From the NCBI RefSeq assembly GCF_009914755.1, contig NC_060929.1: a stretch of DNA of 64,000 nt; one strand, given 5' to 3'. This document shows positions 28,347-64,000 of this stretch, piece by piece. Made by a program: the position numbers and the translations under genes. The notes beneath the pieces are model-generated. The model searched no databases. It had not been told where the DNA came from and saw only the letters and a program-made list of their open reading frames with translations. How positions within the stretch are numbered: the first letter of the stretch is position 1; the number at the start of each line of letters is the position of its first letter. Source of the DNA: the human T2T-CHM13v2.0 reference genome, Homo sapiens.

Positions 28347-29185
28347 ACCATCAAAAAGTGGGCGAAGGATATGAACAGACACTTCTCAAAAGAAGACATT
28401 TATGCAGCCAAAAGACACATGAAAAAATGCTCATCATCACTGGCCATCAGAGAAATGCAAATCAAAACCACAATGAGATACCATCTCATACCAGTTAGAA
28501 TGGCCATCATTAAAAAGTCAAGAAACAACAGGTGCTGGAGAGGATGTGGAGAAATAGGAACACTTTTACACTGTTGGTGGGACTGTAAACTAGTTCAACC
28601 ATTGTGGAAGTCAGTGTGGCGATTCCTCAGGGATCTAGAACTAGAAATACCATTTGACCCAGCCATCCCATTACTGGGTATATACCCAAAGGATTATCAA
28701 TCATGCTTCTATAAAGATACATGCACACGTATGTTTATTGTGGCACTATTCACAATAGCAAAGACTTGGAACCAACCCAAATGTCCAACAATGATAGACT
28801 GGATTAAGAAAATGTGGCACATATACACCATGGAATACTATGCAGCCATAAAAAAGGATGAGTTCATGTCCTTTGTAGGGACGTGGATGAAGCTGGAAAC
28901 CATCATTCTCAGCAAACCATCTCAAGGACAAAAAACCAAACACCACACGTTCTCACTCATAGATGGGAACTGAACAATGAGAACACATGGACACAGGAAG
29001 GGGAACATCACACACCGGGGCCCGTTGTGGGGTGGGGGGAGGGGGGAGGGATAGCATTAGGAGATATACCTGATGTTGAATGACGAGTTAATGGGTGCAG
29101 CACACCAACATGGCACATGTATACATATGTAACAAATCTGCACGTTGTGCACATGTACCCTAAAACTTAAAGTATAATTAAAAAA
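28347..29185 (+). mobile_element. 5'-truncated L1PA
   Basis: ORF2 C-terminus ([18 protein letters not shown]); TSD AAGAAATGCA (28337-28346) / AAGAAGTGCA (29186-29195). Confidence 0.95.
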
Positions 29186-36770: not shown

Positions 36771-36860
36771 CACCATGGCACATGTATACCTACGTAACAA
36801 ACCTGCACATTCTGCACATGTATCTCAGAACTTATAATAATTTTTAAAAAAAGAAAAAAA
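36771..36860 (+). mobile_element. Very short L1PA 3' tip
   Basis: caccatggcacatgtatacctacgtaacaaacctgcac plus A tail. Confidence 0.8.
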
Positions 36861-37119
36861 GTCCTTAAATAACATATTAAATCAGACTACCCTCTCACAA
36901 TGATTATATAGGAAAATATGTCCTGAGTTTCTCACTAGGCTATCAAGTATACAAAACCTTTCCTCCAGTCACATCTAGTATTCATTCATTCATTAATTCA
37001 TTCACTCATTCATTCATATTTGTACCCATATTCTCCCATTCTCCCTCTCCTCCCATCACCCTCCTTCTCTGTCTTTTCACCCCTTTTCTCTCTTCCTCTT
37101 CCCTCTCACCCTCCCCAAC

Positions 37120-37126
37120 TCTCTTT

Positions 37127-37179
<53 letters not shown>

Positions 37180-37190
37180 ATATACACACT
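37120..37190. repeat. Compound (TC)n(CA)n microsatellite
   Basis: Direct reading. Confidence 0.93.
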
Positions 37191-39942
37191 GCTTAAAAGA
37201 AAGGCTCCCATAAATATTATTTTCCTAATGAAAATTCCTTGTTTCCATTCTTGGGGCTAGCATACTTAGAGGTTATATTAAAGACAAAATATTTCAGGAA
37301 GATCAAGGCAGATGCTATTCACTTATGGACAGGAAGCCAGGCGGGGGTGGATGAGAAGGAAACCGCTATTCTACTATATCATCTGTTCTGTGAAGCCTGC
37401 AAAACGTAAGCTTTGATATCTTTGCTTTCCTCCCCAGGGATACCCCACTGTACAGCAGAATACAATCTTAAGGGTTCTTATTATACTCTTTATCCCTGAA
37501 ACAAGCCCATAACCTTTTTGAGATTTCCAGCATCATTTATTATTATGGTTCACAGTATCAGTAACAATAAGAGTGACATAAACTAAAGAAAAAATGCTTT
37601 CTGTCATTCTTATTCCTATTCCACTTAAGTAAGTGAATATACACAGTATCTCATGCACACTTGGTACCGATGGAGAATATGAAGCTGGGCAAACTTGGTC
37701 CTTAAAGGGCTATGTGGATCATAATAGTAGGGGTTTGGCCCATAATTTGAGATTGAGAGTCATTAAAATTTCGAGCAGCACCCATTAATGCATAGTATAT
37801 AACTATGCATTAATATATAACTGTATATATAGTTACAGTTATAGTCAGTATATAACTGACTATAGCCAGTATATTTTATACAAATTGGCACATGAGCTAG
37901 AGTATGAAGCCTGAGCCTGGAGGTGGAAGAAGGGTGAAGATAATTCCAGGAAGATGAGCTCCAATGCTGGGGCTATTCTCCCTTACTGATCACTAGGACT
38001 TGTCATGGATGGGCTCAACAGGGACCTGTGTTAGAACAAGGAGAGAAAATGAGTCTAAGTTTGGCTTTGGCAGAATCTAAGCTGATGACAGTTGAAGGAT
38101 AGGAAAGGAAGGAAACACCAAGTTTCCAGAGGTAGGGAAGTCTGGGTATTTCCAGAATATACTAGCTGTTGAGGCCATTTACAATTGCTGGCTCACATAT
38201 TAAAAATACAATCAGACATCCATAAACCAAACACCACCAGTACCTTAACTTCATATTCCCTTTAAGGCACTAATCTTGGTCAAGCTTCAGGTTCCACGGA
38301 AAAAGTGCCAAGTGCAAAAGAACACGTGTAACTGCTGTGTGACTTTTGCCTTGGGAAAAGTCCCTTAAAGAGGCAATATACAGAAATGCCTTAAGTGGAA
38401 AAGCAGGGCAACCTACAGAAGGTATTAGGACAGTAAAAGAAGTTCTTTGTTTAGGCAAGATTTTTTTAACCAAAAAAGTGAGAATGTAAACCTTATTGCT
38501 TTCAGTTGGAGGACAGCTGGCAGGAGGCTGATTCAGCTAACATTGGGGTTTAAAGGAAATTGGCAGGAGACTCAGGCAGATGTGGTTTGAATACTTCCCT
38601 AAAAGGATTAGGCTGAGTCACAAAAAGAAGTATAAAATGGAGAGGAAGGAATTTGGGGTCTTAATCCAAATTCTGTCACTGACTGTTACTTAGGGTTTCC
38701 AAACGCCATATGCCCAGCTCAGTGCTTTGAAAATATGTCTCCACTGTAAACCTCATCTGATAGGGAAAAAAAATGAGGATCAGAAAAGTTGTATAAATAT
38801 GAGTGATGATGCCAAGATCATAACATGCATTTCTCAAGTTATCAAACTCACCCTTTCTTAATCATTGCTGGAAAATTTCCATATAGCATTCTTTTACAGG
38901 TAGAGACAAAAATATCAACATGAAAGAGTAACATCAAATAGTTGCTCAAGAGATTAAAAGACTTTTTTCTCTCTTTGCAGGGCAGTTGAGGCATAAGACT
39001 ACTGCATCAAAGAAGTGAGTAACATCTTAATTTTCACCTGTTATAATTTTCTGTGAAATAGCAAAATGGTCTCTACTTAAATGTTTTTCACATATTATAT
39101 TTTAAAATGTGTTGCTAGAAGGGCATATAATTTATTCTATTAACACTTTCAAGTGAAATAAACATGCTATAATTCTACTTAAAGGTATTAAGGTAACATT
39201 TTCACATATTTCATTTTGAGGACTTCATTTAATTGAAGTAAGTTGGGAAGAAAAATAAGTAACACTAGAAAACTGCATTGGGTCTTAAGATTTGCTTTTT
39301 TAAATCAGGAAATAAATGCAACTACATCTCTGATTAAGAATAAACATTCTCTCTAAAGCCCCCAAAATCCCTTTATTATATGTTAAAATCTTGGAAGGGT
39401 CTGAACTTCATTAAGAAAAAAATGTAAGAAGCAACTATTAGAATAAATATTATTCTTTATCTTTCTCATCTCTATACTGATTGCTATCAACATGCAGTAC
39501 TTAATTTTAACATTCTGATATACAGCATTATAAATGTGCAACCCAATTACAGAAACACTGATAGGAATGAATATTACATATTATTCATAAAATAGAGATT
39601 TGGAAATAAGAATATATTTCTTCATGGAAGCAATGTTATATATAACCATGTGATCCCATGCCAAATTGTAAAGGCCACTTAAGCCATGATATGGTTAAAA
39701 CTTAGCTTTAAAATACCTAATTACTAAGTAAAATACTGATTATACACAACACATGGAGAATTATGGGTTTTAGGAGCAGAGTAGCCCTATCCCCTGTCCA
39801 TAAATGCAGCAGAAAGAGGAAAAAGGAAATAAGGCATCTCTGAGTCCTGGAAATTATACTCCAGAGAGATTCATCCAAAAAAGAAGAAAAACAAGTAAAA
39901 AAAAAAAAAAAAAAAAAGCTTGTCAAAAAATTCTAGTTATCA

Positions 39943-40274
<332 letters not shown>

Positions 40275-40727
40275 TCAGACTTTCTAAGTCAGAGACAGAT
40301 AACACTCCACACAGAGAACTCTTGAACTCTTGATATTTTCTGCACAGTATGGAAGCTATTGGACAAGAAGCCTTTACAGACAAGGTTTTTTTTTTAAGGC
40401 CTACTGACAAGTACAATGCACACTTTTACCAGTCTTGTAAAACTATTTTAAAAACCAGATGGTATAGGAATGGAAATAAATAGATCTCTTTAAAAAAGAT
40501 ATAATTTTGGCAATAATATACGTTTCAAAGGGCAATGTAAAAATTCTGTTTCAAATCACCTCTACATGGGTCACTAAGATACTTTAACAGTAACTTATGC
40601 CAAATAAAAACTTATTAAAAAATAAAACCCCGAAAGTTAATAACTAAGATTTCTATTCTTTCTAAAGACTGTAGATTTGTTAAATGTTTCAATTGTTAGT
40701 CTATTCGATAAGAGTTGGGATTTTGTT

Positions 40728-41430
40728 CAGTGGCTCTCAACTGAGGGTAGTTTTGCCCCGCAGGAGACATTTGGCAATGTCTGAAAGCATTTTGCTTGTC
40801 ACAATTGGGGGAAGATTACTACATTTATTTAGTAGGTTATATAAGTTTTCATAACAAATTACCACAAATTAGGTGTCATAACAAATGACTACAAATTTGG
40901 TGGCAAAAACAACAAAAGTGTATTCTTTCACAGTTCTGGAGGCCAGGAGTCTGAAATCAAGGTGTTGGCAGGACCTTCCTCCTCTGAACTCTTGAGTGAA
41001 GAATCCTTCCTTGCCTCTGCCTAGCATCTGGGAGTTGCTGGCAACCTTGGCATTCCTTGGCTGTTGGTAGCTGCATTAGTCCAATATCTGCCTCTGTCTT
41101 TACATGATCATCCTCCCTCTGTATATGTCTCTGTCTCTGTTCAAATCTCCTTCTCCTTTTTTTATAAAGACCAGTCATTAGGTTTAGGGCTTACTCTAAT
41201 TTAGTATGACCTTATTTTAGTTCATTACATCTGCAAAGACCCTACTCCCAAATAAGGTCACTTTCACAGGTACCCAAGATCAGGGATTAAACATATCTTT
41301 TTGGGGTGTACAATTCACCCACCGCATATGTAGAGGCCAGGGATACTGCTAAACATTTTAGGATAACAGCTTGCCACGACAAAGAATTATCCAGCGGAAA
41401 ATGCCAACAGTACCAAAGTTGAAAACCTTG
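40728..41430. mobile_element. MER20 DNA transposon interrupted by an MLT1 (MaLR) LTR at ~40838-41325
   Basis: MER20-like ends (cagtggctctcaac...; gtagaggccagggatactgctaaacat) around MLT1 motifs (cacagttctggaggccaggagtctgaaatcaagg). Confidence 0.75.
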
Positions 41431-44136
41431 ATTTTGAACAGATACATCAGCAATACTGATTCTTCAATGTGATCATTCTTAATAATCTTCCAATGGCCCT
41501 GTGGCCCTAAATTCCTGTTCTGCATAGTTTAGGTGCAGACATTTTTAAAGTGTGAACATTTTTTGCCACCCTTCCCTCCCAAGAACACCCTCCTGCCAGG
41601 GGCCTATTTTGAGGACTTTTTATGAAGAAAAACCACATGCTGGATGGACGCTGAAATGCAAACCAGGAAAACAGTTATAGCTATTAGCTATCTCATTGCT
41701 TTTGGCTAAGTTACAAAAGCACTTTGGGCTTCAAGATCAATCAAACAAGGTATCTAAATTCCCTTTCAGGTTCTCAGAAGTATATAATTGCAAGGCTATT
41801 AAAAGCTTCTGGTTTGGGATTAGGGACACATTAGTACAATAACCTCAATAACTTCAAAAATGCCAGGAAAATGCTATTTTCAAAGAAAAGAATAACAACT
41901 CTTTAAAGGTAACATTCATAATTTCTATTCTAACATTATTTGAGATGTTCTATGTTTAAATAGTGGCAATTTTTATTAGGAGTAGAGTTTATTTTTAGCA
42001 AAGTGTTGTGAGGTTTGTTCTCCTACATCAGCATATATGTCATAAGTTATTAATTTCTAACGTTCACCTTATATTGTGCCATATGTGAGACCAGCTGTAC
42101 AAAGTTAATGTGAAAAGATTACACTTTAGAACAAATAGCCTCAACACATGTGATTTGTTTCTGTTGGAGGGCATATACACCTTTGGAAAATGATACCTAA
42201 GAACATTAACAGATTTCTCAACTACTGTTTTAGTTTAATACCTCGGTAAACTGAAGCTTTCTCAGGTAAACTAATTATTTTTGTTTCTTTTCAAACAATC
42301 TCAAAGTAGCAGAAACATTTCAGGAACAGAACATTTTCCCCTCTGAACCATATGAGTAAGTTTCTGACCTGATGCTTCATGCCCCACTAAAACATTACCG
42401 TCTATTTCCTACAAAGGACATTCCCCATACCATCACAATACAACCATTAAAATCAAGAAATGAATATATATGAAGCACCATCTCATCCCCACACCCCATC
42501 TAAGTTTCAAAAAAAAGTCCCTATAACGCACTTGGTAGCAAAAGGTTCCAGCTCAGAATCACACATTGCCGTTGGCTATCACTTCTCTCTAATGTGGCTT
42601 CACTCTGGACCTGTGACAGTCTCTTCTGACTTTTCCATAACCTTGACACTTTTTAAAATTCCAAGACAGTTCTGCTCTAATATGATTATATTTGAGGTAG
42701 GCATCTTTGGCAGGAAGATCATAGAAGTGATGCTGTGCTCTTCTCACCAGATCGTCTCAGATGGCATACCATTTTTTTGGTCTTTGATCATTTGATCAAA
42801 GTGCTGTCTGCCAAGCTTCTCCACTATAAAGTTACTCTTTTTCCCTTGATATTAGTAAGCATATTCTGAAGAGTTACTTTGAATCTTTAGTACTTTGTAC
42901 CCCATCAAAGTTTTCATTGATTTATTTTTTAATTTGCTTCAGTTGGTACTCATGAATCCCCATATTATTAAATGGGTTACAATCCACTAATATTATTATT
43001 TATTTTGATGCTCAATTTTGTCCCAGATTTGTCCAGTGGGAACCCCTTCATATTGGCTCCTGTATCTTTTTGACATGACTCATTATCCTTTGAGCACTCC
43101 ATTGCTTTCTGGCACAAGATGTTCTAGGCTTATCTGCTACTTTCCCACACTAGCCCTGAAATCAGCCATTTCTCCAAGAAGCCTTGGTTACTATTAGTAA
43201 AGAATGGTATTTAGAACCCAAGATCTGGGTGCTAAGTATACTCATCACTACTGGAAATCACTGCTAAGAATACATGTGCACATATTCATATACACATACA
43301 ACTTATAATGTATATCATATACACTTATGTATATGATATGCATGATACGTATTCATCATACATATATTTACACATATACTTGTTTAAAGCTATATACCTA
43401 TATAGACTTAAGTAAAGAGATAGGGATTTAATGTCATGGATTCCCATGGATACTGCCAACTGCAATCCAACACCACAGGGTTCATTCTACTTTTTCTCTA
43501 TCTTTATTTCATTCTTCTCTAGTGAAAAACCTAGATCCTATTATCTTTCCTAGATTTAATTATTTGATCCATCACCCTGTATACTGCTAAACTGTCATTG
43601 CTACTGCCACACCTGTCCCCACAGAGATGTCTCCTTACCCACTCAGGCTCCAACCTCCATCGCTGGTCTGACCCTCCTACATGCTTTCCTCCACATCTTG
43701 TTTGGGATCAAACATCACCCATCTGCTGCTCCTGCACAAAAGCCTTGTTAAACTTGCTCAACTCTGGGATCCTGTGTCAAGCTGCCCGCTGCAGGAGCAA
43801 CCATTCACTGTGCTCAGGCCCTAATACTCCACACCAGGCTGCCCTCCTGCCTGATGCCATCCTTACCAGGGTCAGCCTCAGATATCCTGATCTGGTCCCC
43901 TTGGGCTCCACCCACTTAGTGAGGATGTCTCCTTGCTCTTCCCCACCAAATAACTATAGGACCTATGGAGGGAAAGATGAGAGGGAGGAGGGAAGGGAAC
44001 GAGGGTGACAGAAGATGAGGAAGAGTCAGTTGCCCTAATTCTTAACAAATGTTTTCAACATATAATTTTTTTGTGATGATAAATTTAGGGTAAAAATGGT
44101 CATGCATCAGAAACATCACTATTAAAAGTAGGCTTA

Positions 44137-44452
44137 GGCTGGGCACCGTAGCTCTCGCCTATAATCCCAACACTTTGGGAGGCTGAGGCAGGAAGATCGC
44201 TTGAGCCTAGGAGTTCAAGGCCAGCCTAGGCAACCTAGTGAAACCCCATCTCTACAAAAAATACAAAAATTAGCCGGGTGTGGTGGCATATGCCTGTAGT
44301 CCCAGCCATGTGGGAGGCTGAAGTGGGAGGATCTCTTGAGCCCAGAAGGTCAAGGCTGCCCTGAGCCATGAGTGTGCCTCGGTACTCCAGCCTGAGTGAC
44401 AGAGTGAGACCCTGTCTCAAAAATTAAATGAATGAATGAATGAATAAATAAA
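44137..44452 (+). mobile_element. Alu (J-like)
   Basis: TSD taaaagtaggctta at 44123-44136 and 44453-44466. Confidence 0.93.
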
Positions 44453-44492
44453 TAAAAGTAGGCTTATGGTTCATCTGTTCCATTTAAACAGA

Positions 44493-44764
44493 TTTTGGTC
44501 TTTGATCATTTGATCAAAGTGCTGTCTGCCAAGCTTCTCCACCATAAAGTTACTCTTTTTCCCTTGATATTAATGAGCACATTCTGAAGAGTTACTCTGA
44601 ATCTTTAATACTTTGTACCCCATCAAACTTTTCATTGACTCCTTTTTAAATTTACATCAGTGGGTACTCATGAATTCCCATATTATTAAATGAGTTGCAA
44701 TCCACTAATATCATTATTTATTTGATGCTCAATTTGTCCCAGATTTGTCCAGTGGGAACCCCTT
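44493..44764 (+). repeat. ~270-bp direct copy of 42775-43048 (old L1M-like fragment)
   Basis: Colinear match starting ttttggtctttgatcatttgatcaaagtg and ending gtccagtgggaacccctt; TTTAAA on both sides. Confidence 0.9.
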
Positions 44765-46441
44765 TAAATGTCCTTAAAGGTAAAAACTGCCAGCATGTTC
44801 TACTGAGATATGGACTAACAATGTCAGTCAGACATATGTGGGTGCTTGAATAGTATTTGCTTCAAAAATATTTATTACTAGAAAGCTGCTGTGTTTGGGG
44901 TGAGAGGTTAGTAGGGAAGGGGGTTCATAAAGGGAATGCAAAAGCCACGTCCTCTGGAAGTTAAAAGGATCATTTTAAATGATTCTACTGCAAACATTTT
45001 TCAAAAGATAAACATGACCCATTTCTCCAATTTGTGTCATGTAATAGTAATAATAATGATATTTAAATACTCCCACTGATATATCCTTTACAAAGATATA
45101 TTATATGTCTTATTTAATCAAAAAACCTTAAAACAGTCCCTGTACCTAATTTTATTCCAGGACTCAAACTGTGTCAGCATGTCATTCAGTGCAAATCAGA
45201 CATTTAGATGCATAGGCTATGCTGTCAGTAGTTCTGAACTTTCATAGACATTTCCAATTAGCTCGGAGAGACAACTGGATATTGTGTTTAAGCACTGTGT
45301 TTAGGAAAACAGGCACTGGATGGACCAATGCCAAATTTCCTGCTCTGCTGCTTAACTAAGTATGTGTAATTACTTGGGCAATTAAGCAATTACTTGGGCA
45401 ATTACATAAGCCAAGCCCCAATTTCTTCATCTTGAGCCCAGAAGGTCAAGGCTGCAGTGAGCCGTGAATGTGCCTCTGCCCTCCAGCCTGAGCGACAGAG
45501 TGAGAATTCCCCAGGAGTGCAGAGGTTCTCAGAACTGCAATACTCTGAGATGAATTTTGAAAGGTGAATCAGGGATAGAAGAATTAGGGATACCCAGAAA
45601 GGAGAAAAATGTTCTAGACAATTCTTTTTTCTTTTTTCAGCTGGAACTAAAAAAATGCTAACTCATAGGGCTATACATTTATAACTATTCTTATTATTAA
45701 AATTTGACTCAAAGTCTTAGGTTAACAGACAACCTGTGTCTAAGTATGTAGGCCTATACATCTAGGTCAAAAATATCCAGTAAACCTCACAATATCCTTT
45801 GGCAAAGAGAAAAATGAATTTCCCAGAGATCAATACCGAATCTAGAAAACAAGCTGAGAGTGCCTGACAATTTTTAATTCTGGCTTAAATTCGATGCTAA
45901 CTTCATAACTTTTGTCTTGTACATTATTCCACAATTTTAGCTTACGTGGAGCTAAAAGAGCAGAACTTATACCATATACATAGAGTGACATCCCCTCCCC
46001 CATTCATCTTATTGATTTACACCTTCATTTATTCCACTTTCATTTGTTTCCTACCTTTTTTTTTTTTTTTCCTTTAGAGATCTTCTCTGCATATCAACTT
46101 AACCCTGACGCCTATGGAATAAGTATTTACCTAACAGTGCACTGTCTAGGCCATATCATTTTAAAGCTGTGGTTTTTAACCAGCTTAAAATCACATTTAA
46201 AGCTACATGGAGAGCTGATGAAACTCCTTAATGCCCACACTGAATCCCAAGCCAAATGAACCAGAGTTTTGCGGGAAAAGATCCAGGTATCAGGATTTTT
46301 CAAGCTCTCTGGTGATTCTGACATACAGTCAAGTAGAGAATCAAAGTTCTACAATGAATCCAGAATGCACTGGTTCTCAGAACTGCAATACTCTGAGGTG
46401 AACCAGGGATAGAAGAATTGGAGATACCCAGAAGGGGGAAA
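44691..46441 (+). repeat. Source segment of the local duplication (block A 44691-45580, block B 45569-46441)
   Basis: A matches 50323-51211 as reverse complement; B matches 51209-52081 directly with offset 5640. Confidence 0.95.
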
Positions 46442-46459
46442 AATGTCCTGGACAATTCT

Positions 46460-46755
46460 GTTTCTTTTTCTTTCTTTTTTTTTGAGACAGTTTTGCACTG
46501 TCACCCAGGCTGGAGCTTAGTGGCACCATCACCATCATAGCTCACTGCAGCCTCAAACTTTGGACTGAAGCAATCTTTCTGCCTTGGCATCCCAAGCACC
46601 TGGGACTACTGGTGTACATCACCACAACCGCACTTTTAATTTTTTTTTTTTTTTTTAATAAAGAAGGGACCTTGCTATGTTGCCCAGGGTGGTCTTGAAC
46701 TCCTGGATTCCAGCCATCCTCCCACCTCAGCGCCCAAAAGTGCTGGGATTACAGG
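46460..46755 (-). mobile_element. Alu (J-like), 5'-truncated
   Basis: TSD cctggacaattct at 46447-46459 and 46756-46768. Confidence 0.9.
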
Positions 46756-47401
46756 CCTGGACAATTCTTTATAAGTGGTATTATGGAAAAGAGATGTGGC
46801 ACAAGGAAATCTGCGAAGGAACCCAAGATGTTCTGTCCAAGTTGTTAACAACTAGACGTTTTAAAAGGCATTTATAAAAATTAATAGTCTTACCTTTTGA
46901 TTATCCTTCCTTCTCTATGGTGTGTTACAAAAATTCCACATCTTACAAGCCCATGAAAATAAATTCCCATGAGAGTTTGAAAACTTTTTGCAGAATAATG
47001 TCCCAATTTTAGTTACTGGTGGCCAATATTTACCAGCTTGAGAGGTGGTCTTTTATTACCCTTACTGGCTGGTAACATTTATGACACAGAAACTTGCAAT
47101 AGGTTGGATGGAATCCTTTCAATATGAAAAGTAATTATAAACAGGTGAAGGTAGAATGGCAACTTTCGTGTTGGCTTTGTTAATGTTTTGCACGTAATCC
47201 CTCTGTCAAAGTGTCTTAAACAATAAAACAACAAGCAAAAATCTCACACATACACACACACACATGCACACACACATTTTGTTTTCAAAGACCACGGTGT
47301 AAAATGAAGATACACACACGTTATCCTGTAAGTTGTGGATCTTTGGTTGGCTAGTTGGTTATGATGTTTTTTCCCCTACTCAGCTCTAAAAAAACATCCT
47401 C

Positions 47402-47772
<371 letters not shown>

Positions 47773-47899
47773 TCAAGAAAAGGGAGTAGGCCTTGGGGAA
47801 ATGTGGCTTTCAAAATTCATGCCATATTTGCCCAAGCCAAGTCGCTAGCTGGTCCCTGCAACCACCCACACACCCCACTGCCTTCTTCCTAGGAAAAAC

Positions 47900-48650
47900 C
47901 AGACTCTGCCCTGTTACCTACGCGCCCGACTCGCGGGGCGCTGTTCGTTCAAGACTCGCCCCAAAGAGCGCAGGAACGCGAGCCGCAGCAGTTTCAGGGT
48001 TCAGCTTAGGTGACACAAACGTAGCTAATGGGAGGCCGCCGCCGACTCTCCCACCCGCCCTTACCAGCATCCCCGCGCCTCTCCCCGCCACCCTTGCCCG
48101 GCGCGCCGGCGATGCCCTCTGCCCGCGGGGACCCGAGCCTCGCGCGCCCTCCGCCCTCCCTACCCTGGACCCTGTACCCATCACACCTGGGGCACTGCCG
48201 TCCGCCGAGCTTGGGCGCGCGGCAGCGAGAAGGCACTGGAGGAGGAGCAGCCGGGGCGTACGCGCCCTGGCCTCCAGCAGGCCGGGGAGGGCGCGCATGG
48301 CGCCAGAGGGTCCGCCTGGGTCCTCGTGGAGACTGCTCCCTCAGCTCGCCGCCGCGGGTGTCCAGAGTCCCTGCGCACACTCGCAGGTGGCCCGGCGCTC
48401 GCAGCCAGTGCCGCGGGTAGGACGCTGAAGAAAAGGCGGCATGGGAGGGGCCCGGCCGCCTTGCCCCACTCCCCCGAGACGCTCTTACCGCGCCCGGCCC
48501 TCCATCAGTTATGCAGCCCTCAGCCGGCTGCTGGCGTTCCCGGATGTGCGGTGGCGGTGCTACTTCCCGGCTGCAGCCTCTCCGGCCTCCGCCCTCTCGG
48601 CTCTAGCAGGTCGGGAGAGAGCTTGGGCAGGTGATGTCTAGCCAATCTCG
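47900..48650 (-). promoter_or_regulatory. EMB: CpG island promoter, 5'UTR and exon 1 of EMB
   Basis: Sharp rise in GC and CpG density in an otherwise AT-rich window; GC-box-like motifs; spans the start codon. Confidence 0.92.
48187..48298 (-). CDS. EMB: Embigin coding exon 1 (signal peptide, MRALPGLLEA...ADGSAP)
   Basis: ATG at 48298 inside a CpG island; 112 nt; donor CAG|GTGTGA at 48187/48186; phase 1 joins exon 2 in frame; peptide recognised as the embigin N-terminus. Confidence 0.97.
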
Positions 48651-50322
48651 TGGGGAGAGGTCGAAACTCTGCCTACAGACTGGCCTTTGCACTTCACCTG
48701 AGGCAGGTTTCACTAATTTGCTTTGATGGGACAGATGAGAGACACTTTTCTCCTCCCGGACCCCGGACATCTTTGGGCTTTCTTACGAGGGAGGCTTATT
48801 TTTGCGCAGGTGTAAGGTTTTATCCAGCTGCCAGACAACTTGTGTTAATCTTTCTTTGCTTTGCCTACCAATCACACACATTCTCTCTTCTAGTCTCTGA
48901 AGGCTTAACTGATTTTCTCCGGATGAAGGTTTTAGAGTCCCAAGGCCCCATACCGTGTCTGATTTTACTTTATTTTTGTTTGTTAAGCCTAACAGCTTCT
49001 GAGGAGCCACCTAGAGCTCAAGAAGCAAAAGCTACTGAGAGTAGATACTATGTAAACTGCACAAGACATTGACCTTTGTTAAATCCGAACACTCTTTAAG
49101 ATAATGCTCTTACCCACAAGGCTGTAGCTTGGAATATTCAGTGCTCTGAACCAAATTAAATAAATTAGTGCTTTATCCGGGAGGGGAGGAGAAATCTATA
49201 TTGTAACATTGAAACACATTGATTTGATTTCTCTCCAGGATGTTATAACGCATTAAAAGATATTTTTAAAATTTTTCACGAGCTTTGTTTCCTCTCCCTT
49301 TATTTTTTTGAAGTTCAGCTTTCACATTCGTAAATTCAAAATATATCGGCGTTAAAAAAAAAAAGGATTGGAAATAACATGAGACAAATTTTGAAAATTG
49401 AGCTATTTAACAAAACCTGTGTTTATTCCAGGCAGGAATGGTTAATTTGTAATTGGTACGTATTACTAAAACACGTCTGTTTCTGGTTTAGTATTATATG
49501 CACAAAACTTTGGAAACAGAATGTAGATTCTTCAAATTGGCAGTGAGATAATATGAATAATACAATTCATTCAACAATATTATCTACCAGGTGCCAATCT
49601 ACCATTGTGTTCAAAAGAGGCTAGATAGGCACACATGCACAAATGCACGCATGCACACATGTACACACACACACACACACAAATTAGACAACTGTTTATC
49701 TGTGAATGACAAATCTCAGAAAAGCCTCTTCTCAGAAAATTATGGTCAAAATGATTAAAATCTTCTGAATGAAACTTTAAAAGATGCCTTCAAGGACTAA
49801 ATCTTATACACTGTTGACCCTCTGAGGGCATTGACTGGGCTTGCTAAACCCAAATTGCCTAATCAATGGCTGCTACATCACACCTCTTTCTTTCAACCCT
49901 GCATCTGGTCTCAGGACTAACTGCACACATTTCCCTATAATTAGGTAGAGTGTCAACAGTAAGCACTTCTCACCTCAAACTAAACTCTGACTGACTTTTC
50001 CCAGTTAGTCTCATAAAATCCTTAGACACAAATTCACCCTTCTTAAAGAAACATTTTTTTCAGTTGAATCAGCCTATTTATGACCAGAAAAACTTACTTA
50101 CCCCAGTTGATGCTGATCCCCACTGTTGCTTTTGCTGTTGGAACAAAAGAGTTGAGAAAGAAATATAATTCTCATTTTGCTAAGCATTTTGAAAGTCTTT
50201 TCATCACTGTTCCTGTTCTATATTTAGATATTTGATATTTCCAGCCTTATGTACATTCCACTTTTTCAAATGCTCCATATCCTTTAAAACAAGCTTATTG
50301 ACTGCCTTCCCTATATAACTTT

Positions 50323-52081
50323 TTCTATCCCTGATTCACCTTTCAAAATTCATCTCAGAGTATTGCAGTTCTGAGAACCTCTGCACTCCTGGGGAATTCT
50401 CACTCTGTTGCTCAGGCTGGAGGGCAGAGGCACATTCACGGCTCACTGCAGCCTTGACCTTCTGGGCTCAAGACGAAGAAATTGGGGATTGGCTTAAGTA
50501 ATTGCCCAAGTAATTGCTTAAGTAATTGCCCAAGTAATTACACATACTTAGTTAAGCAGCAGAGCAGGAAATTTGGCATTGGTCCATCCAGTGCCTGTTT
50601 TCCTAAACACAGTGCTTAAACACAATATCCAGTTGTCTCTCCGAGCTAATTGGAAATGTCTATGAAAGTTCAGAACTACTGACAGCATAGCCTATGCATC
50701 TAAATGTCTGATTTGCACTGAATGACATGCTGACACAGTTTGAGTCCTGGAATAAAATTAGGTACAGGGACTCTTTTAAGGTTTTTTGATTAAATAAGAC
50801 ATATAATATATCTTTGTAAAGGACATATCAGTGGGAGTATTTAAATATCATTATTATTACTATTACATGACACAAATTGGAGAAATGGGTCATGTTTATC
50901 TTTTGAAAAATGTTTGCAGTAGAATCATTTAAAATGATCCTTTGACTTCCAGAGGACGTGGCTTTTGCATTCCCTTTATGAACCCCCTTCCCTACTAACC
51001 TCTCACCCCAAACACAGCAGCTTTCTAGTAATAAATATTTTTGAAGCAAATACTATTCAAGCACCCACATATGTCTGACATTGTTAGTCCATATCTCAGT
51101 AGAACATGCTGGCAGTTTTTACCTTTAAGGACATTTAAAGGGGTTCCCACTGGACAAATCTGGGACAAATTGAGCATCAAATAAATAATAATATTAGTGG
51201 ATTGCAACTCAGGGATAGAAGTATTGGGGATACCCAGAAGAGAGAAAAATGTTCTAGACAATTCTTTTTTCTTTTTTCAGCTGGAACTAAAAAAATGCTA
51301 ACTCATAGGGCTATACATTTATAACTATTCTTATTATTAAAATTTGACTCAAAGTCTTAGGTTAACAGACAACCTGTGTCCAAGTATGTAGGCCTATACA
51401 TCTAGGTCAAAAATATCCAGTAAACCTCACAATATCCTTTGGCAAAGAGAAAACTGAATTTCGCAGAGATCAATACCGAATCTAGAAAACAAGCTGAGAG
51501 TGCCTGACAATTTTTAATTCTGGCTTAAATTCGATGCTAACTTCATAACTTTTGTCTTGTACATTATTCCACAATTTTAGCTTACATGGAGCTAAAAGAG
51601 CAGAACTTATACCATATACGTAGAGTGACATCCCCTCCCCCATTCATCTTATTGATTTACACCTTCATTTATTCCACTTTCATTTGTTTCCTACCTTTTT
51701 TTTTTTTTTCTCTTTAGAGATCTTCTCTGCATATCAACTTAACCCTGATGCCTATGGAATAAGTATTTACCTAACAGTGCACTGTCTAGGCCATATCATT
51801 TTAAAGCTGTGGTTTTTAACCAGCTTAAAATCACATTTAAAGCTACATGGAGAGCTGATGAAACTCCTTAATGCCCACACTGAATCCCAAGCCAAATGAA
51901 CCAGAGTTTTGCGGGAAAAGATCCAGGTATCAGGATTTTTCAAGCTCTCTGGTGATTCTGACATACAGTCAAGTAGAGAATCAAAGTTCTACAATGAATC
52001 CAGAATGCACTGGTTCTCAGAACTGCAATACTCTGAGGTGAACCAGGGATAGAAGAATTGGAGATACCCAGACGGGGGAAA
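50323..52081. repeat. Rearranged copy of the intron-1 segment (inverted A plus direct B) flanked by the 10-bp direct repeat AACTTTTTCT
   Basis: Near-identical to 44691-46441; AACTTTTTCT at 50317-50326 and 52080-52089. Confidence 0.95.
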
Positions 52082-52275
52082 CTTTTTCTGACCTTTCTGG
52101 TCCAAATTGACCTTTTCCTCCTTGGTGAAATAAATATTGCAACAAGCACTTTGATACTCTCATCATGAAGCGTATAAAGGGGGAATAAGGGTCCTTTGTT
52201 TTCTCCCCTTGAGTTGGGTGGGCTCTTTGACTCCCCTAACCTACTGAATATTGCTGAAGAGATACTGTGTGGGCT

Positions 52276-52585
52276 GGCCAGGCGTGGTGGCTCGCGCCTG
52301 TAATTCCAGCACTTTGGGAGGCTGAGGCAGGCAGATCACAAGGTCAGGAGCTCGAGACCAGCCTGGCCAATATGGTGAAACCCCGTCTCTACTAAAAATG
52401 CAAAAAAAAAAAAAAAAAAAAAAAATTAGCTGTGCATGGTGGCGCATGCCTGTAATCCCAGATACTTGGGAAGCTAAGTCAGGAGAATTGCTTGAACCCA
52501 GGAGGCAGAGCTTGCGGCAAGCCAACATCGCACCACTGCACTCCAGCCAGGGCAACAGAGCAAGACTGTCTCAAAACAAAAAAAG
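52276..52585 (+). mobile_element. Alu (S-like) with expanded middle A-tract
   Basis: Full-length Alu consensus match. Confidence 0.92.
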
Positions 52586-53169
52586 AGAGAGAGAGATTGT
52601 GTGAGCTTTCTGTTCCAGACCACAAGAGCTTCCACTTCCTTTCTGTTGGAGATCTTGCTCATAGAAGACACCTGCCTAGTGAAAAGTACTACAGTATTAT
52701 CCTGAGACTGCCACACTGTGAGAAACCCAAACGCCATGGAGGACCCCGTAAAAATAAAGTCAGGTCAAGTAAAAAAGGAATATGAAGGTTTATTATACAT
52801 ACAGAAGAATAGTTCACAAACCAGAAGACTTCAAATCAAAAGTAGTAAGAAACTTGACGTGAGAGTTACAGTGCAGCTTATAAAGCATCAATGAGGAAGT
52901 GCATTGACCTCTGCTGTGACTGGCTATTAAAAACATATTCCTTTTTGGGCAAGTAGAGTTGTATAAACTTATTTATCTGTAACAAATTGGTTCAATTTCA
53001 TCATACTAACAAGAAAGGAAAGCTTAACTTTTGTTAATCATTAGAAATTGCATTTCAGAGAAATCAGGATAGCTTAAATTTTGGTTATGTGGCTATGAGT
53101 GGTTGACCTAAGAATATACTGTTGCCTCCATTTTGATTATACTTTAACAAATCCCTCATACAGGACCTT

Positions 53170-55193
53170 AAATCATTGTTGATTGTTTCCTTTGCTGTGC
53201 AGAAGCTTTTTAGCCTGGTTCAATGCCATTTGTCTATTCTTTCTTGGTTGCCTGTGCTTTAGAGGTCTTACACAAAATGTCATTGCTCAGCCTAATGTCC
53301 TGGAACACTTCCGCAAAGTTTTCATCTAATTGTTTCATAGTCATAGTTCCAGGTATTAGATTTAAACCTTTCATCCATTTTAATTTTATTTTTGTGTATG
53401 GTGAGATATAGGGGTTTATTTCATCCTTCTACATGTAATTACCCAGTTTTCCCAGCACCATTTATTAAACAGACTCTCCTTTTCCTATTGTATGCTCTTG
53501 GTGCTGTTGTTGAAGATGAGTTGGCTGTCAATGCATTGATTTATACCTGGGTTCTCTATTCTGTTTCATTGGTCTGTGTGTCTGTTTTCTTGCCAGTTCT
53601 ATGCTAATTTGGTTACTATAGCTTTTTTTTTTAATGTTTAATTTTTGTTTTAAGTTCCAGGGTACATGTGCAGAATATGCAGGTTTTTTATGTAGGTAAA
53701 TGTGTGCCACCGTGGTTTGCTTCACAGATCATCCCATCACCTAGGTATTAAGCCCAGCATGCATTAGCTATTCTTCCTGATGCTTTCCTTCCTGCAACAC
53801 CCCACCCCCAAAAGGCCAAGTATGTGTCCATGTGGTCTCATCATTCAGCTCATTCAGGTGAGAATATGTGGTGTTTGGTTTTCTGTCCCTGCGTTCATTT
53901 GCTGAGGATAACAGCTTCCAGCTCTGTCTATGTCCCTACAAAGGACATGATCTTGTTCCTTTTTATGGCTGCATAGTATTCCATGGTGTATATGTACAAC
54001 ATTTTCTTTATCCATTCTACCATTGATGGGCATTTTGATAGATTCCATGTCTTTAATATTGTGAATCGTTGGTTATTATATCTTTGCAGTAAATTTTGAA
54101 GTCAGGTAATGTGATGCCTCCAGCTTTTTTTGTTTTTTTCTTATTTTGCTTGGAATTGCTTTGGGTCTTCAGGGTCTTTCTGGTTTCATATAAATTTTAG
54201 CATTTGTCCTATTTCTGTGAAGAATGGCATTGGTCTTTTAATAAGGGTTGCATTAAATCTGTAAATTGCTTTGGATAGTATTGTCATTTTAGCAATATTA
54301 ATTCTTCCAATCCATGACATAGAATATCCTTATTAATGTTTTGTTCAATTACTTTAATCAGTTTTTTATAGTTATATTTGTATAAATCTATCAGTGTTGG
54401 TGCACAGATGTATATAATGGTTACATTTTCTTGCTGAATTGACCTTTTTATCATTATGTAGTAACCTTCTTTATCTCTTTTTACAATCTTTCATTTGTAG
54501 TCTATTTCCTCTAATATAAGTATAGTTACTCCCACTCTCTTTTAGTTTCCAGTTGCATGCAATATCTTTTTTCACCCCTTCACTTTCAGTCTATCTATAT
54601 CTTTAGAGGTGAAGTGGGTTTCTTATAGGCAGCATGTAGTTAGGTATTGTTTGTTTATCCATTCAGCCACCCTATGCCTTTTAATTGGAAAATTGAGTCC
54701 ATTTAAATCCAGTATTATTATTGATAAGTAGGGAATTGCTACTGCCATTATGTTGCTTATTTTCTGGTATTTTGAAACTCCTCTCTTCTTTTCTTCTTTT
54801 CTCACTCTCTTCTTTTGGGGTTAAGTGATTTTCTGTGGTAGTATGTTTTAATTTGCTGTTTTTTAATTTTTGTGAATCTATTATAGGTTTTTGCCTTATG
54901 GTTACTATGAGGTTTACAAAAAAATCTTGTAGATATAACAAGTTATTTTAAAGAGATGACAATTTATCTTAGATCACAAAGAATAGAGACAAACAAAAAA
55001 TGAAACTTCCACATTTTAACTTCATTTCTCTCTCATTTTGAATTTTAATTGACTTTACATATTTTTATATTACCTATCTCTTAACAGGTTTCTGTAGCTA
55101 TTATTGTTTTTGATAGATTTGCTTTTTGAGGCTTCATATTAGAGTTATAAGTGGATTGCACACTACAATTATAGTATCAGAGTATTCTGAGTT
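53170..55193 (-). mobile_element. Old L1 fragments with a nested L1PA 3' end (~53622-54068)
   Basis: L1 antisense motifs; the nested element is bounded by ttggttactata / ttggttattata; the old L1 appears to resume after the provirus at ~59541. Confidence 0.75.
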
Positions 55194-55749
55194 TGTGTCC
55201 GGGATTTATTCCTTCTGGTGGATTCGTGGTCTCGCTGACTTCAAGAATGAAGCCGCAGACCTCGCAGTGAGTGTTACAGCCCTTAAAGGTGGCATATCCA
55301 GAGTTTGTTCCTTCTGGTGGGTTCGTGGTCTCGCTGACTTCTGGAATGAAACCACAGACCCTTGTGGTGTTACAGCTCATAAAGGTAGTGTGGACCCAAA
55401 GAGTGAGCAGCAGCAAGATTTATTATGAAGAACGAAAGAATAAAGCTTCCACAGCATGGAAGGGGACCCAAGCAGGTTGCTGCTGCTGGCTCTGGTGGCC
55501 AGCTTTTATTCCCTTATTTGGCCCCACCCATGCCCTGCTGATTGGTCCATTTTACAGAGTGCTGATTGGTCCATTTTTACAGAATGCTGACTGGTGCATT
55601 TACAATCCTCTAGCTAGACAGAAGAGTTCTCCAAGTCCCCACCTGACCCAGAAACCCAGCTGGCTTCATCTGTCTATCCCCCCTCTAAATAGGACACCCT
55701 AACTGCTGTGGGAATTGTGCTATGACCACTTTAGCTACTTCCTGCTGGA

Positions 55750-56290
55750 TAGAGGGAAAGAAGGGGCCCTGCAGTGGTAGTGTCCTCCAGAGGGGAACTC
55801 TCTAGGCCAGCCAAAGGGCCAGTGAGTTGATCCAGGGGTCCTCAGTAGAAGTTGTTAGTTGAGCTCATTTAGGGTTCCATTTGTAAGACCTCTATGTCTT
55901 GATGGCATGGATCCTGGAGGAAACAAATTTGACAAGGAGGTTAAAAACACACAGCCCGAAGGTGAGTAATAGCAAGATGGCTGAAACAGGACCTAGAAAT
56001 GGGAGAAGCCACGTTGCCCAACTTCAGAGGTTGGTATAAGAGTTTGAAAGGCATTGTCTGATTTAAAAAGCCTTTTCCTGTAAATGCCGGGCAGCATTTT
56101 GTACTATCCCTGACTGGTTAGTGTAAAAACAACAGTCTTCCCCTAAGAAAGTGCTGAGTCCTCCTTTCTCAGCAGTGAGGAGGTCTAGGCCTCGGCGGTT
56201 TTGGAGAGTCACTGCTACCAGAGTCTATTTGGGATTGTAGAGTAAGGATAGATTTTGTTATTTTTTGCAAACTGTCTGAGAAATCCTTTG
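55750..56290 (-). pseudogene. env TM-subunit remnant with immunosuppressive domain
   Basis: Minus-strand translation at 56206-56156 gives [17 protein letters not shown], followed by [16 protein letters not shown] and an in-frame stop. Confidence 0.88.
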
Positions 56291-56914
56291 AGATTAATAG
56301 CAAAGAATAATTGAAATCCCAAACTTACAAAGTTTTCAACAAAACTACAGTTTGCTAAAAGTTAACAGTGTAACATGTATTATCCTACTACCACACACTA
56401 AGACCTTATTAACTTAGAATTGGTATAGATGGCTCCTTCCTGATTCTGTAAGTACTTTAAGGTTTGGCTGAGTGCAAACAACTGGCACATTTGAGCAGAC
56501 CAATTGTTAGGCAATTTTCCTAATTCTGCTTCTACAAGAGTTTCCTTATCACTTACTGAATACCCATTGTGTCTTTTTCCCTTAATCTCCCGGGAGGAAA
56601 CATCTATCATCCCGTCCTGAAGGGAGTACTTCCTAGGTCTGGTCAGACCTTTGTATGGTAATTAATTAAGATTTAGATCCCCTGTTAGGAAACCTGCTGG
56701 GTTAAGGATATTTTTATAGGAAAGCTACAGTTTTGATAGGAAGGCTATGGGTTGTCAGTGGCCTCAGTGTTTTTGGGCTACACCCTTGTTTACACTGACA
56801 ACAAGGTGGTTTGGAGTGTTATAGGGTTATGGAGAAGACCTTCAATTATAAATTATAGGTTTAAAATTTACCCTGGATTTTAAAGGAATAAGATACACTG
56901 TTTTTTCTTTACTG

Positions 56915-57110
56915 CTTCCATCTCTCTTTCTCTTTGACTTCTTCTTTGTCTCTCTCTTTCTCTCTTTCTGACTCCCTCTTTGTCTCTTCCTCTTTCTCTG
57001 ACTTTCTATCTCTCTCTTTCTCTCTCTCTCTGACTCCCTCTTTGTCTCTGTTTCCTCTTCTCTCTCCCTCTCTCTCTGACTTTCTGTCTCTCTCTTTCCT
57101 TTCTGCTGGT
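56915..57110. repeat. CT-rich simple repeat inside the provirus
   Basis: Repeated tctctctttc / ctgact units. Confidence 0.9.
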
Positions 57111-57572
57111 CTTTGCCTGCCTCTGCCAGCTGCTTATGCTGCTGCTCTCCCCTCTCCTTCCCCGTTTTGATGGCTTCAGCAGTGTAAGACTACCACCTCC
57201 TTGGGTTTTTGCACTGTGTGCAATAACTCCATGATTTCCTTGTGGTATTTAATGGGGCTCCCCCAGAGGTTAGGAACTCCCTTTCTTTCCATATTGCAGC
57301 ATGGGCATGTAGGATTAGATAAGCATACTTAACATCTGTAGCAAAGTCTCCCAATTAGAACTGAGGAGGTGGGAGAAATACCTGGTTACAGGCTGTCCCA
57401 AGATTCCTCGGATGGTAATGGACCTTGAGGACAGCTGTCTGGGACAGGAGATTAACACTGAGAAAGATGCACCAGTGTCCAGGAGGAAGTCAATTTCCTG
57501 GCCCTCAATAGATAAATGTACCTGAGGCTCAGTAAGGTTGATGACATGAGCTGGCGCTTGCCCTGGGCACCC

Positions 57573-59022
57573 TCAGTCCTGTTGTTGGATCATCTGGTTG
57601 GGGATTTCTGACCCAGAGAACCTTTGTCCTCTGGGGCAATGAGCCTTCCAGTGATAGCCTTGGCATAATGGACATGGGTGAGGGGGCGGCTTGTTTCTCA
57701 TTGGACAATCTTTTTTAAAGTGTCCTTGCAAACCACACTGATAACAAGCCCTAACAGGTGATTGGCCTGCTCCATTTTCTGTCCTGTCTGAACCACCAAG
57801 GTTTGTCTGAGGGCCATGACTAAGGCTGTGGCCTTTCTCCGATCTCACTTTTCCTTTTCAGCCTGTTCCTCTTGGTCCCTATTATAGAACACTAAGGTTG
57901 CCAGGTTTAATAATGCCTCCAGATTTTGTTCAGGGCTCAGAGCTCGCTTTTGGAGCTTTCTCCTGATATCTGCGGCTGATTGGGTAATAAACTTATCTTT
58001 TAGGGTCAATTGACCCTCGAGGGAGTCAGGTGACAGGGGAGTATATTTTCTTAGGGTCTCCTGTAGCCACTCAAGGAAAGCAGGATTTTCTTCCTTTCCC
58101 TGAGTTATGGTGGACTTCATTGAATAATTCATGGGCTTTTTTCTAATTCTCCTTAGTCCTTCTAGAACACAGATCAACAGATGTTTGTGACTCCAGTCCC
58201 AATGATGTGAGTCTAGGTCCCAGTGGGGATCCATACTGGGGATGGCTTGCTGACTGGTAGGGAATTTGTCCCTTTCTTCGTCTGTCACTCTATCATTTAC
58301 TTGACTAAGATACCAGGTATCTTCAAACTCTCAGGCTGCAGCTAAAGCCGCATTCTTTTCATTAAAGGCCAGGGTTTGATCTAATAGCATGACATCTCTC
58401 CAAGTGGGATTGAATGTTTGCCCTAGACCCTGTAGGACATCTATATACCTATCAGGATCATCTGAAAACTTCCCCAGGTCTGCCTTGATCTGCTTTAAAT
58501 CAGAGAGGGAGAAGAGGACATGTACCCAGGTTGGGCCAAATTCCCCACTCCCTACAGCTTAAAGAGGACATAACTGATAGCCTGGGGGTTTTTGTGCTCA
58601 CTTGGAGATTTCTTTCCTTGTTTCCTTCTGGGCAGGGATATTAGAGGAGGCTTATCATTAATAGGAAGGGGAGCTATAGGGAAGCTAGGATATGGGGGTA
58701 AGCTGACAGGTCCTCTTGTGGGATATAAATTAGAAGATTTGCATAGTTGTGGATTCTCCTTCAATGAAAAGAAAGCTTGGATATAAGATATTTCACTCCA
58801 TTTGCCTTCCCTTTTACAGAAAAGGTCAAGCTGCAGGATAGTATTGTAATTTGTACTTCCCTCAGGTGGCCATTTTTCCCCATCAGAGAGATGATATTGG
58901 GGCCAGGCCATATTGCCAAAAAAAATGAGCCACCTCTTTTTCAGGGTTTGCTGGTCAAATTGGTCCCAATGGCTTAGGATGCATTGCAAGGGTGGGCCTG
59001 TTGGTGTCTGAGTGTTTCCCAT
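57573..59022 (-). pseudogene. Disrupted gammaretrovirus-like gag (MA, CA, NC)
   Basis: Three frameshifted ORF pieces: MGNTQTPTG...[25 protein letters not shown] (major homology region) and a CCHC knuckle. Confidence 0.9.
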
Positions 59023-59052: not shown

Positions 59053-59764
59053 AGGTGTGTCCTGAGTTTATTCCTTCTAGTGGGTTCTTGGTCTCGCTGA
59101 CTTCAAGAATGAAGCCGCGGACCTCACAGTGAGTGTCACAGCTCTTAAAGGTGGTGTATCCAGAGTTATTCCTTCTGGTGGGTTCGTGTTCATGCTGACT
59201 TCAGGAATGAAGCCACAGACCCTTGCAGTGAGTGTTACAGCTCATACAGGTAGTGCGGACACAGTGAGCAGCAGCAAGATTTATTATGAAGAGCAAAAGA
59301 ACAAAGCTTGCACAGCATGGAAGGGAACTTGAGTGGGTTGCCACTGCTGGCTCGGGTGGCCAGCTTTTATTCCCTTATTTGGCCCTACCCATATCCTGCT
59401 GATTGGTCCATTTTACAGAGTGCTGATTGATCCATTTTTAGAGAATGCTGATTGGTGCATTTACAATCCTCTAGCTAGACAGAAAAGTTCTCCAAATCCC
59501 CACCCATCCCAGAAGCCCAGCTGGCTTCACCTCTCAAGTTTATTCATGAACGTAATTTTACCAACATGTTTTATACCATAATTTTGTTTTTGCACATTAA
59601 CCATTTTTACTTTCAGAAGGAAGAATTCCCCTTAGCATTTCTTGTAAGATGAATCAGGTAGTGGTGAATTCTCTCAGGTTTTCTTTGCCTGGAAAACATT
59701 TTATATCATCTTCATAATAAGTTTGCTAGATACACTATTCTTGAATGACAGCTTTGTTTGTTTT

Positions 59765-60123: not shown

Positions 60124-64000
<3,877 letters not shown>

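What the first reader, a model, noticed from the sequence alone, without database searches (positions are those of the whole stretch)
44691..52081. EMB promoter and exon 1 bracketed by both inverted and direct near-identical repeats: a potential flip/delete switch
Seen: ~890-bp inverted repeats enclose a 4.7 kb spacer (45581-50322) holding the CpG island and the signal-peptide exon. ~870-bp direct repeats 5640 bp apart enclose the same region. By eye I count only about a dozen differences in B, four of them packed in the first ~35 bp, with a long identical run toward the other end. Known: such repeats are substrates for non-allelic homologous recombination and gene conversion. Inference: A x A' recombination would invert the promoter (EMB off, transcription redirected upstream) and B x B' would delete 5.64 kb including exon 1. 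The uneven divergence hints at gene conversion.
Basis: partly seen in the sequence, partly recalled or inferred. Interest (0 to 1): 0.75.

Follow-up and report, generated by a model that had tools for sequence, protein, structure and literature searches.

The report
Local repair patch beside embigin promoter
The repeats around the human embigin promoter are the two halves of one 1.75-kb piece of DNA copied from about 4 to 6 kb away, likely a few million years ago during repair of a break, and no flipped version appears in the two inversion catalogues checked, so it is likely a repair scar rather than a gene switch.

Summary
The repeats are real: A/A' inverted, 98.0%; B/B' direct, 98.5%, 5640 bp apart. 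They are not two independent systems. A' and B' form one 1753-bp insertion (50327-52079), reverse-complemented A joined to B, flanked by a 10-bp target-site duplication. A paralogous copy on chr1 keeps the empty site. The source ends of the two halves overlap by only 5-8 bp and all three junctions show microhomology: twin-priming geometry, but without poly(A), from a local template, on the strand antisense to EMB. Best model: both 3' ends of a staggered break primed on the resected + strand. Differences split evenly between source and copy (10 vs 9, 1 both; 1.2%), so gene conversion is not needed. No inversion here in two catalogues of 41 and 65 genomes; the deletion and apes were not testable. 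One annotated consequence: A' holds the first exon of RefSeq's second EMB transcript, whose long frame (277 aa) lacks the N-terminal 50 residues. Verdict: a templated-insertion scar, not a demonstrated switch.

The parts
44691..45576 (+). A, source of the inverted half (EMB intron 1)
   Evidence: present once in the chr1 paralogue
45569..46439 (+). B, source of the direct half; overlaps the end of A by 5-8 bp
45577..45583 (+). A-rich 7-nt patch complementary to the T-rich 3' end of the left break end (inferred priming site 1)
   Evidence: 7-nt 3' run with one G:T pair; 0.9% of local + strand sites match as well
46440..46441 (+). 2-nt microhomology (6 of 10 overall) with the 3' end of the right break end (inferred priming site 2)
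   Evidence: weak: 26% of sites have such a 2-nt run, 2.3% also 6 of 10
48187..48435 (-). EMB exon 1 in a CpG island, lying between source and insertion
   Evidence: hub annotation
50102..50134 (-). second exon of the alternative EMB transcript, outside the insertion
   Evidence: hub annotation; AG/GT ends; donor GT reads GC on chr1
50317..50326 (+). target-site duplication, left copy (10 bp, T-rich 3' end)
   Evidence: motif occurs twice in the window and once in the fetched chr1 stretch
50327..51211 (-). A', inverted half of the insertion
   Evidence: absent from chr1
50340..50447 (-). first exon of RefSeq's second EMB transcript, wholly inside A'
   Evidence: hub annotation; GT donor
51209..51211 (.). 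internal junction of the insertion, 3-bp microhomology shared by A' and B'
51209..52079 (+). B', direct half of the insertion; no poly(A) at its end
52080..52089 (+). target-site duplication, right copy

Best explanation
A' and B' are one 1753-bp insertion copied from EMB intron 1 and flanked by a 10-bp target duplication, likely made in a single germline break-repair event in which both broken ends primed synthesis on the same exposed neighbouring DNA strand. Shown: single insertion, source, duplication, three junction microhomologies, empty site on chr1. Inferred: (1) a staggered cut with 10-nt 3' overhangs at 50317-50326, possibly by L1 endonuclease; (2) resection of the left end exposed the + strand over about 5.6 kb; (3) its T-rich 3' end folded back onto 45577-45583 and copied A leftwards (886 nt); (4) the right end annealed at 46440 on the same strand and copied B (871 nt) until just past the first primer; (5) the two new strands joined through 3 bp and were filled in. 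The copies have since diverged evenly. The repeats could recombine rarely but are not a working switch. Probability of 'single local templated insertion' about 0.93; of this DNA-templated route about 0.55.
For: chr1 paralogue is colinear on both sides (36846-50326 and 52080-58832) and lacks A'B'. Duplication twice on chr5, once on chr1. Rebuilding the locus from the source pieces reproduces it with 21 mismatch and 9 gap columns in about 2600. Source ends overlap by 5-8 bp; a random switch would land within 10 bp about 2% of the time in an 886-nt bubble, 0.2% in +-5 kb. Twin-primed junctions typically carry 1-10 bp deletions or duplications (22 and 10 of 32; PMC11702581). The template must be the + strand: antisense to EMB, with no annotated transcript in the hub table, but exactly the strand that resection exposes left of the break (inference). 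No poly(A); the nearest + strand AATAAA is at 46657, beyond B. Local DNA-templated additions at ORF2p breaks are reported. Balanced divergence.
Against: Needs about 5.6 kb resection on one side while the other end keeps its 10-nt overhang intact. The pyrimidine-run/purine nick motif (1.2% of sites) and segment lengths near 0.9 kb also fit L1 reverse transcription. Priming site 2 has only a 2-nt 3' match. The duplication (10 bp) is shorter than the 12-18 bp typical of ORF2p 5'-inverted insertions. One outgroup only, no ape sequence. Only 41 and 65 genomes were screened, and only for inversions.
Confidence: 0.55

Rival explanations
1. L1 ORF2p cut the site and reverse-transcribed a local antisense RNA from both ends (twin priming with internal, not poly(A), priming).
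For: Target duplication; T-rich nick resembling the 5'-TTTT/A-3' motif; A-rich first priming patch; overlap of 5-8 bp and 3-bp internal microhomology match L1 inversion junctions (median 2 bp; duplications in 89 of 273); inverted segments usually under 1.5 kb (291 of 330).
Against: No poly(A) or nearby signal. The T-rich end primes the upstream site, the reverse of canonical twin priming. Template is antisense to EMB with no annotated transcript. The source lies under 6 kb away, whereas templated insertions from RNA are described as coming from distant regions.
Confidence: 0.27
2. One nascent strand switched template three times at a stalled fork (FoSTeS/MMBIR, a local 3-jump), stepping back 10 bp on return.
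For: Microhomology at all three junctions; local n-jumps with mixed inverted and direct junctions are a described class (PMC7025897); inverted duplications mostly show 1-15 bp microhomology; older local duplicates surround the source.
Against: Does not explain why B starts within 8 bp of where A was entered (0.2-2% by chance), nor the T-rich staggered target.
Confidence: 0.13
3. The repeats act as a recombination switch that inverts or deletes the EMB promoter, kept alike by gene conversion.
For: Geometry allows both products; perfect runs of 246 and 323 bp exist; 132 of 183 resolved inversions have flanking inverted repeats of 200 bp or more; a 3.2-kb and a 7.4-kb chr5 inversion are polymorphic; the 323-bp run is borderline long (P 0.035-0.075).
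Against: No inversion call here. Divergence is balanced and equal in both arms. Origin is fully explained by one insertion. No recombinase or site is implicated. Repeats are shorter than the 1.6-24 kb of the inversions studied in PMC3961182.
Confidence: 0.04

Closest known systems
L1 twin priming (5'-inverted insertions; described; the 2001 original was not held)
   Same: Inverted plus direct segment from one template strand, abutting source ends with a short duplication, internal microhomology, target duplication, T-rich nick.
   Different: No L1 or mRNA cargo, no poly(A); the T-rich end primes the upstream segment; template is local and antisense to the gene.
Templated sequence insertion polymorphisms, classes 1 and 2 (PMC5110952)
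   Same: Donor intact, intronic donor, duplication of 5 bp or more and L1-like site (class 1), microhomology (class 2).
   Different: Mixes the classes: duplication without poly(A) or signal; donor is adjacent, not distant; polymorphism not shown.
Local n-jumps / complex inverted duplications (PMC7025897; PMC12350158)
   Same: Local copy-and-paste with mixed inverted and direct junctions and microhomology.
   Different: Germline and old; discrete target duplication; twin-priming geometry.
NAHR-mediated polymorphic inversions (bioRxiv 2021.12.20.472354; PMC3961182)
   Same: Near-identical inverted repeats flanking a few kb.
   Different: Repeats only 0.89 kb at 98%; no inverted allele found.

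Membership tests
L1 twin-primed insertion | target-site duplication | tested here: met
   10 bp, single on chr1; below the 12-18 bp mode
L1 twin-primed insertion | endonuclease-type T-rich nick site | tested here: inconclusive
   pyrimidine run then purines, two departures from TTTT/AA; pattern at 1.2% of local sites
L1 twin-primed insertion | inverted and direct segments with abutting source ends and junction microhomology | tested here: met
   5-8 bp overlap, 3-bp microhomology
L1 twin-primed insertion | poly(A) tail primed by the T-rich end at the template's 3' end | tested here: not met
   no poly(A); T-rich end abuts the upstream segment
L1 twin-primed insertion | RNA template | not testable with these tools
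   no splicing to test; no annotated + strand transcript in the hub table
Class 1 templated sequence insertion | poly(A) 10-30 nt after a cryptic signal | tested here: not met
   first AATAAA at 46657, outside B
Class 2 templated sequence insertion | no target duplication; NHEJ-type junctions; distant donor | tested here: not met
   duplication present, donor local
Local n-jump (copy-and-paste complex duplication) | local templates, copy gain, clustered inverted and direct junctions on one chromosome | tested here: met
   three junctions within 7.4 kb; rebuild matches
NAHR inversion polymorphism | inverted repeats of 200 bp or more | tested here: met
   886 bp, 98%
NAHR inversion polymorphism | both orientations observed | tested here: not met
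   absent from two catalogues; rare alleles not excluded
NAHR deletion hotspot | 5640-bp deletion alleles | not testable with these tools
   no full deletion call set was readable
Interlocus gene conversion | homogenised tracts or patchy divergence | tested here: inconclusive
   longest-run P 0.035-0.075 in B, 0.39 in A; balanced polarisation; one haplotype only

The most novel reading that the evidence does not exclude
A hominine- or human-specific, L1-endonuclease-type break was repaired by twin priming on neighbouring DNA rather than RNA, and the patch gave EMB a new upstream first exon that makes an embigin lacking its N-terminal 50 residues; the same signature (target duplication, inverted plus direct local halves, template strand fixed by the side of the break) marks an uncatalogued class of sub-kilobase repeat makers.
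Probability: 0.15. Interest if true: 0.62.

Novelty: new variant of a known kind. Interest (0 to 1): 0.33.

Why it matters
It shows at base resolution, with an in-genome empty site, how one repair event can leave both inverted and direct near-identical repeats around a promoter, and it makes a testable prediction separating DNA from RNA templates (the template strand should follow the side of the break). It also ties an annotated alternative EMB first exon to a young insertion.

Tried and rejected
Assembly artefact: rejected, since the copies differ at 20 polarised sites in both directions and carry a target duplication. chr1 state as a B x B' deletion: rejected, chr1 keeps the spacer. Twin priming on EMB sense pre-mRNA: rejected by geometry, both outer ends need a + strand template. 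A or B as dispersed mobile elements: only a 75-bp Alu-like piece is dispersed; the old 46340-46460 repeat is local only (6 of 6 matches here or on chr1). Structured RNA: 0 Rfam matches in 42000-54000. The 35-bp cluster at the start of B: significant only for that chosen window (P 0.008), not for any window (P 0.43); copy-lineage changes near segment ends 3 of 10 (P 0.04, post hoc). PMC12350158 supplement: no coordinate hit, but it has no inversion table and is cut, so uninformative. First Logsdon searches lacked a working control; one search opened an unrelated table; fixed format and control. Paper searches: embigin + EMBP1, 6 papers, none on this structure by listing; embigin + human-specific + insertion + chimpanzee, 0; embigin + promoter + alternative + first exon, 3 unrelated by listing; embigin + SV terms, 1 of 20 listed names embigin, for a different 186-bp eQTL insertion; templated sequence insertion with three further terms, 0.

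Full report
Observation. Both repeat pairs exist as described. A (44691-45583) matches the reverse complement of 50320-51211 at 97.99% over 897 columns; B (45569-46441) matches 51209-52081 at 98.51% over 873 columns, 5640 bp apart. B has 13 differing columns, four in its first 35 bp, and a 323-bp identical run; A has 9 mismatches and 3 indels, longest run 246 bp. Exon 1 and its CpG island (GC 0.70, CpG o/e 0.83) lie between.

What it is. A and B are neighbours in the source and A' and B' abut, which suggested one event. A search of the own genome with A+B gave one other full-length copy, on chr1 at 121.53 Mb, 94% identical (40 of 2157 candidates scored). I take it to be the EMBP1 pseudogene region; the name is in print but its location is recalled. 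That copy aligns to window 36846-50326 and resumes at 52080 with nothing between: it has A, B, exon 1 and the spacer in the same orientation, and no A'B'. Its empty site holds once a 10-bp motif that flanks the chr5 insert on both sides, at 50317-50326 and 52080-52089. The insert is thus 50327-52079, 1753 bp: reverse complement of 44691-45576, then 45569/72-46439. Rebuilding the locus from these pieces reproduces it with 21 mismatch and 9 gap columns in about 2600.

Junctions. The T-rich + strand end of the target pairs over 7 nt (one G:T) with 45577-45583; 0.9% of local sites do as well. The other end has a 2-nt match at 46440 (6 of 10 overall; weak). The internal junction shares 3 bp. The source ends overlap by 5-8 bp. 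Both outer ends require a + strand template. There is no poly(A), and the first AATAAA lies at 46657, beyond B. The nick context, six pyrimidines then two purines, occurs at 1.2% of local positions.

Age and conversion. Against chr1, in 1725 ungapped columns, 10 changes fall on the source, 9 on the copy, 1 on both, and 64 are shared by both chr5 copies. Divergence is 1.16% (95% interval 0.7-1.8) against 3.8-4.9% between chr5 and chr1, a ratio near 0.28 (0.17-0.43, counting the doubly changed site twice). Human-chimpanzee divergence is about 1.2% (recalled), so the insertion dates near the African ape splits if unconverted; whether it is human-specific is open. A and B carry 10 and 11 events (P = 0.83). 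The longest run is unremarkable in A (P = 0.39) and borderline in B (0.075 as events, 0.035 as columns, uncorrected). The 35-bp cluster is significant only as a chosen window. Conversion is not required and, with one haplotype, not excluded.

Mechanism. An inverted plus a direct segment with abutting source ends is twin-priming geometry. In engineered cells such junctions carry 1-10 bp deletions (22 of 32) or duplications (10 of 32), with 12-18 bp target duplications (PMC11702581); polymorphic L1s show the same. This case departs in four ways: no poly(A), the T-rich end primes the upstream segment, the donor is local, and the template strand is antisense to EMB. All four follow if the template was DNA: resection left of the break exposes the + strand, its own end folds back and copies A, the other end anneals further along the same strand and copies B until it meets the first primer, and the new strands join by 3 bp. 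These steps are inferred. The same paper reports three insertions with sequence templated from DNA near ORF2p breaks. I give this 0.55, reverse transcription of an antisense RNA 0.27, serial fork switching 0.13. Against my model: long one-sided resection with an untouched overhang on the other side, and a nick motif and segment lengths that suit L1 reverse transcription equally.

Is it a switch? The predicted products are geometrically right, and an A x A' inversion would also turn B and B' into 873-bp inverted arms 874 bp apart. But Porubsky 2023 Table S1 (41 genomes, T2T coordinates) lists 7 chr5 inversions, none at 51.26 Mb. Logsdon 2025 Table 37 (65 genomes) has no ID starting chr5-512 while the known 65.29-Mb inversion is found; Table 38 has none at 50.4 Mb, the recalled GRCh38 position. 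That file is cut, so Tables 60-61 were not seen. Flanking repeat length drives recurrence, 23 of 32 recurrent inversions having 10 kb or more, though 200-bp repeats flank many single inversions. Rare alleles, somatic events and the deletion remain untested.

Consequence. The hub's second EMB transcript starts at 50447, inside A', and uses a GT donor at 50339; it splices to 50134-50102 and exon 2 with canonical ends. Its ATGs open frames of 7, 31 and 277 aa; the last is embigin without residues 1-50, which include the hydrophobic N-terminus. The exon cannot predate the insertion at this place. Whether it is a real start site or is translated was not tested, and the model may be predicted.

Papers seen. 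PMC12350158: passages, section 18, supplement index and one search. PMC10150506: supplement searches, abstract start. PMC12350169: supplement index, two parts, four searches. bioRxiv 2021.12.20.472354: passages, section 11; supplement closed and may list small inversions. PMC11702581: passages, section 6. PMC5110952: parts 1-2 of 4. PMC2837659, PMC7025897, PMC13174262, PMC12718161, PMC3961182, bioRxiv 2020.12.16.423102: passages. No description of this insertion turned up in searches; ape SV tables were not read.

Verdict. Observation confirmed; interpretation partly supported. A real, young local templated insertion with an unusual mix of hallmarks: a new variant of a known kind, interest 0.33.

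Noticed in passing
window 42775-43048 and 44493-44764: Older local direct duplicate, 274 columns, 92.7%, also present on chr1; the start of A lies inside the second copy.
   Followed up: partly
window 45430-45505 vs 44334-44409; 45515-45636 vs 46363-46469: The end of A is a mosaic of a 76-bp Alu-like piece (89% to 44334) and a copy of 46363-46469 with 14 extra bases. All source breakpoints of the young insertion fall in such older local duplicates, which cover 22% of 44000-47000: possibly repeated local copying at one locus.
   Followed up: partly
window 45345-45415 and 50485-50560: Small palindromic duplication shared by A and A', shorter on chr1; A' has 4 more bases; weak predicted hairpins (-8 to -9 kcal/mol).
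   Followed up: partly
window 50097-50101: The GT donor of the 33-nt alternative exon reads GC in the chr1 copy; direction of change unknown.
   Followed up: no
window 55194-55674 and 59056-59535: Direct pair of about 480 bp, 88% identical, LTR-like by inference, also matched on chr1; family not determined.
   Followed up: no
window 28348-29190 and 60137-60979: Inverted 844-bp L1-like pair, 91% identical, 31 kb apart, also bracketing EMB exon 1.
   Followed up: no
window 43301-43350: AT-rich 50-bp imperfect palindrome, predicted hairpin -12 kcal/mol.
   Followed up: no
G000:C1:121519858-121541387: chr1 paralogue keeps EMB exon 1 with its ATG and a 3-bp indel and aligns to window 35844-58832 at 92-94%.
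   Followed up: partly
outside the window (GRCh38 chr5-50299995-INS-186): A different 186-bp insertion is a reported lead eQTL for EMB.
   Followed up: no
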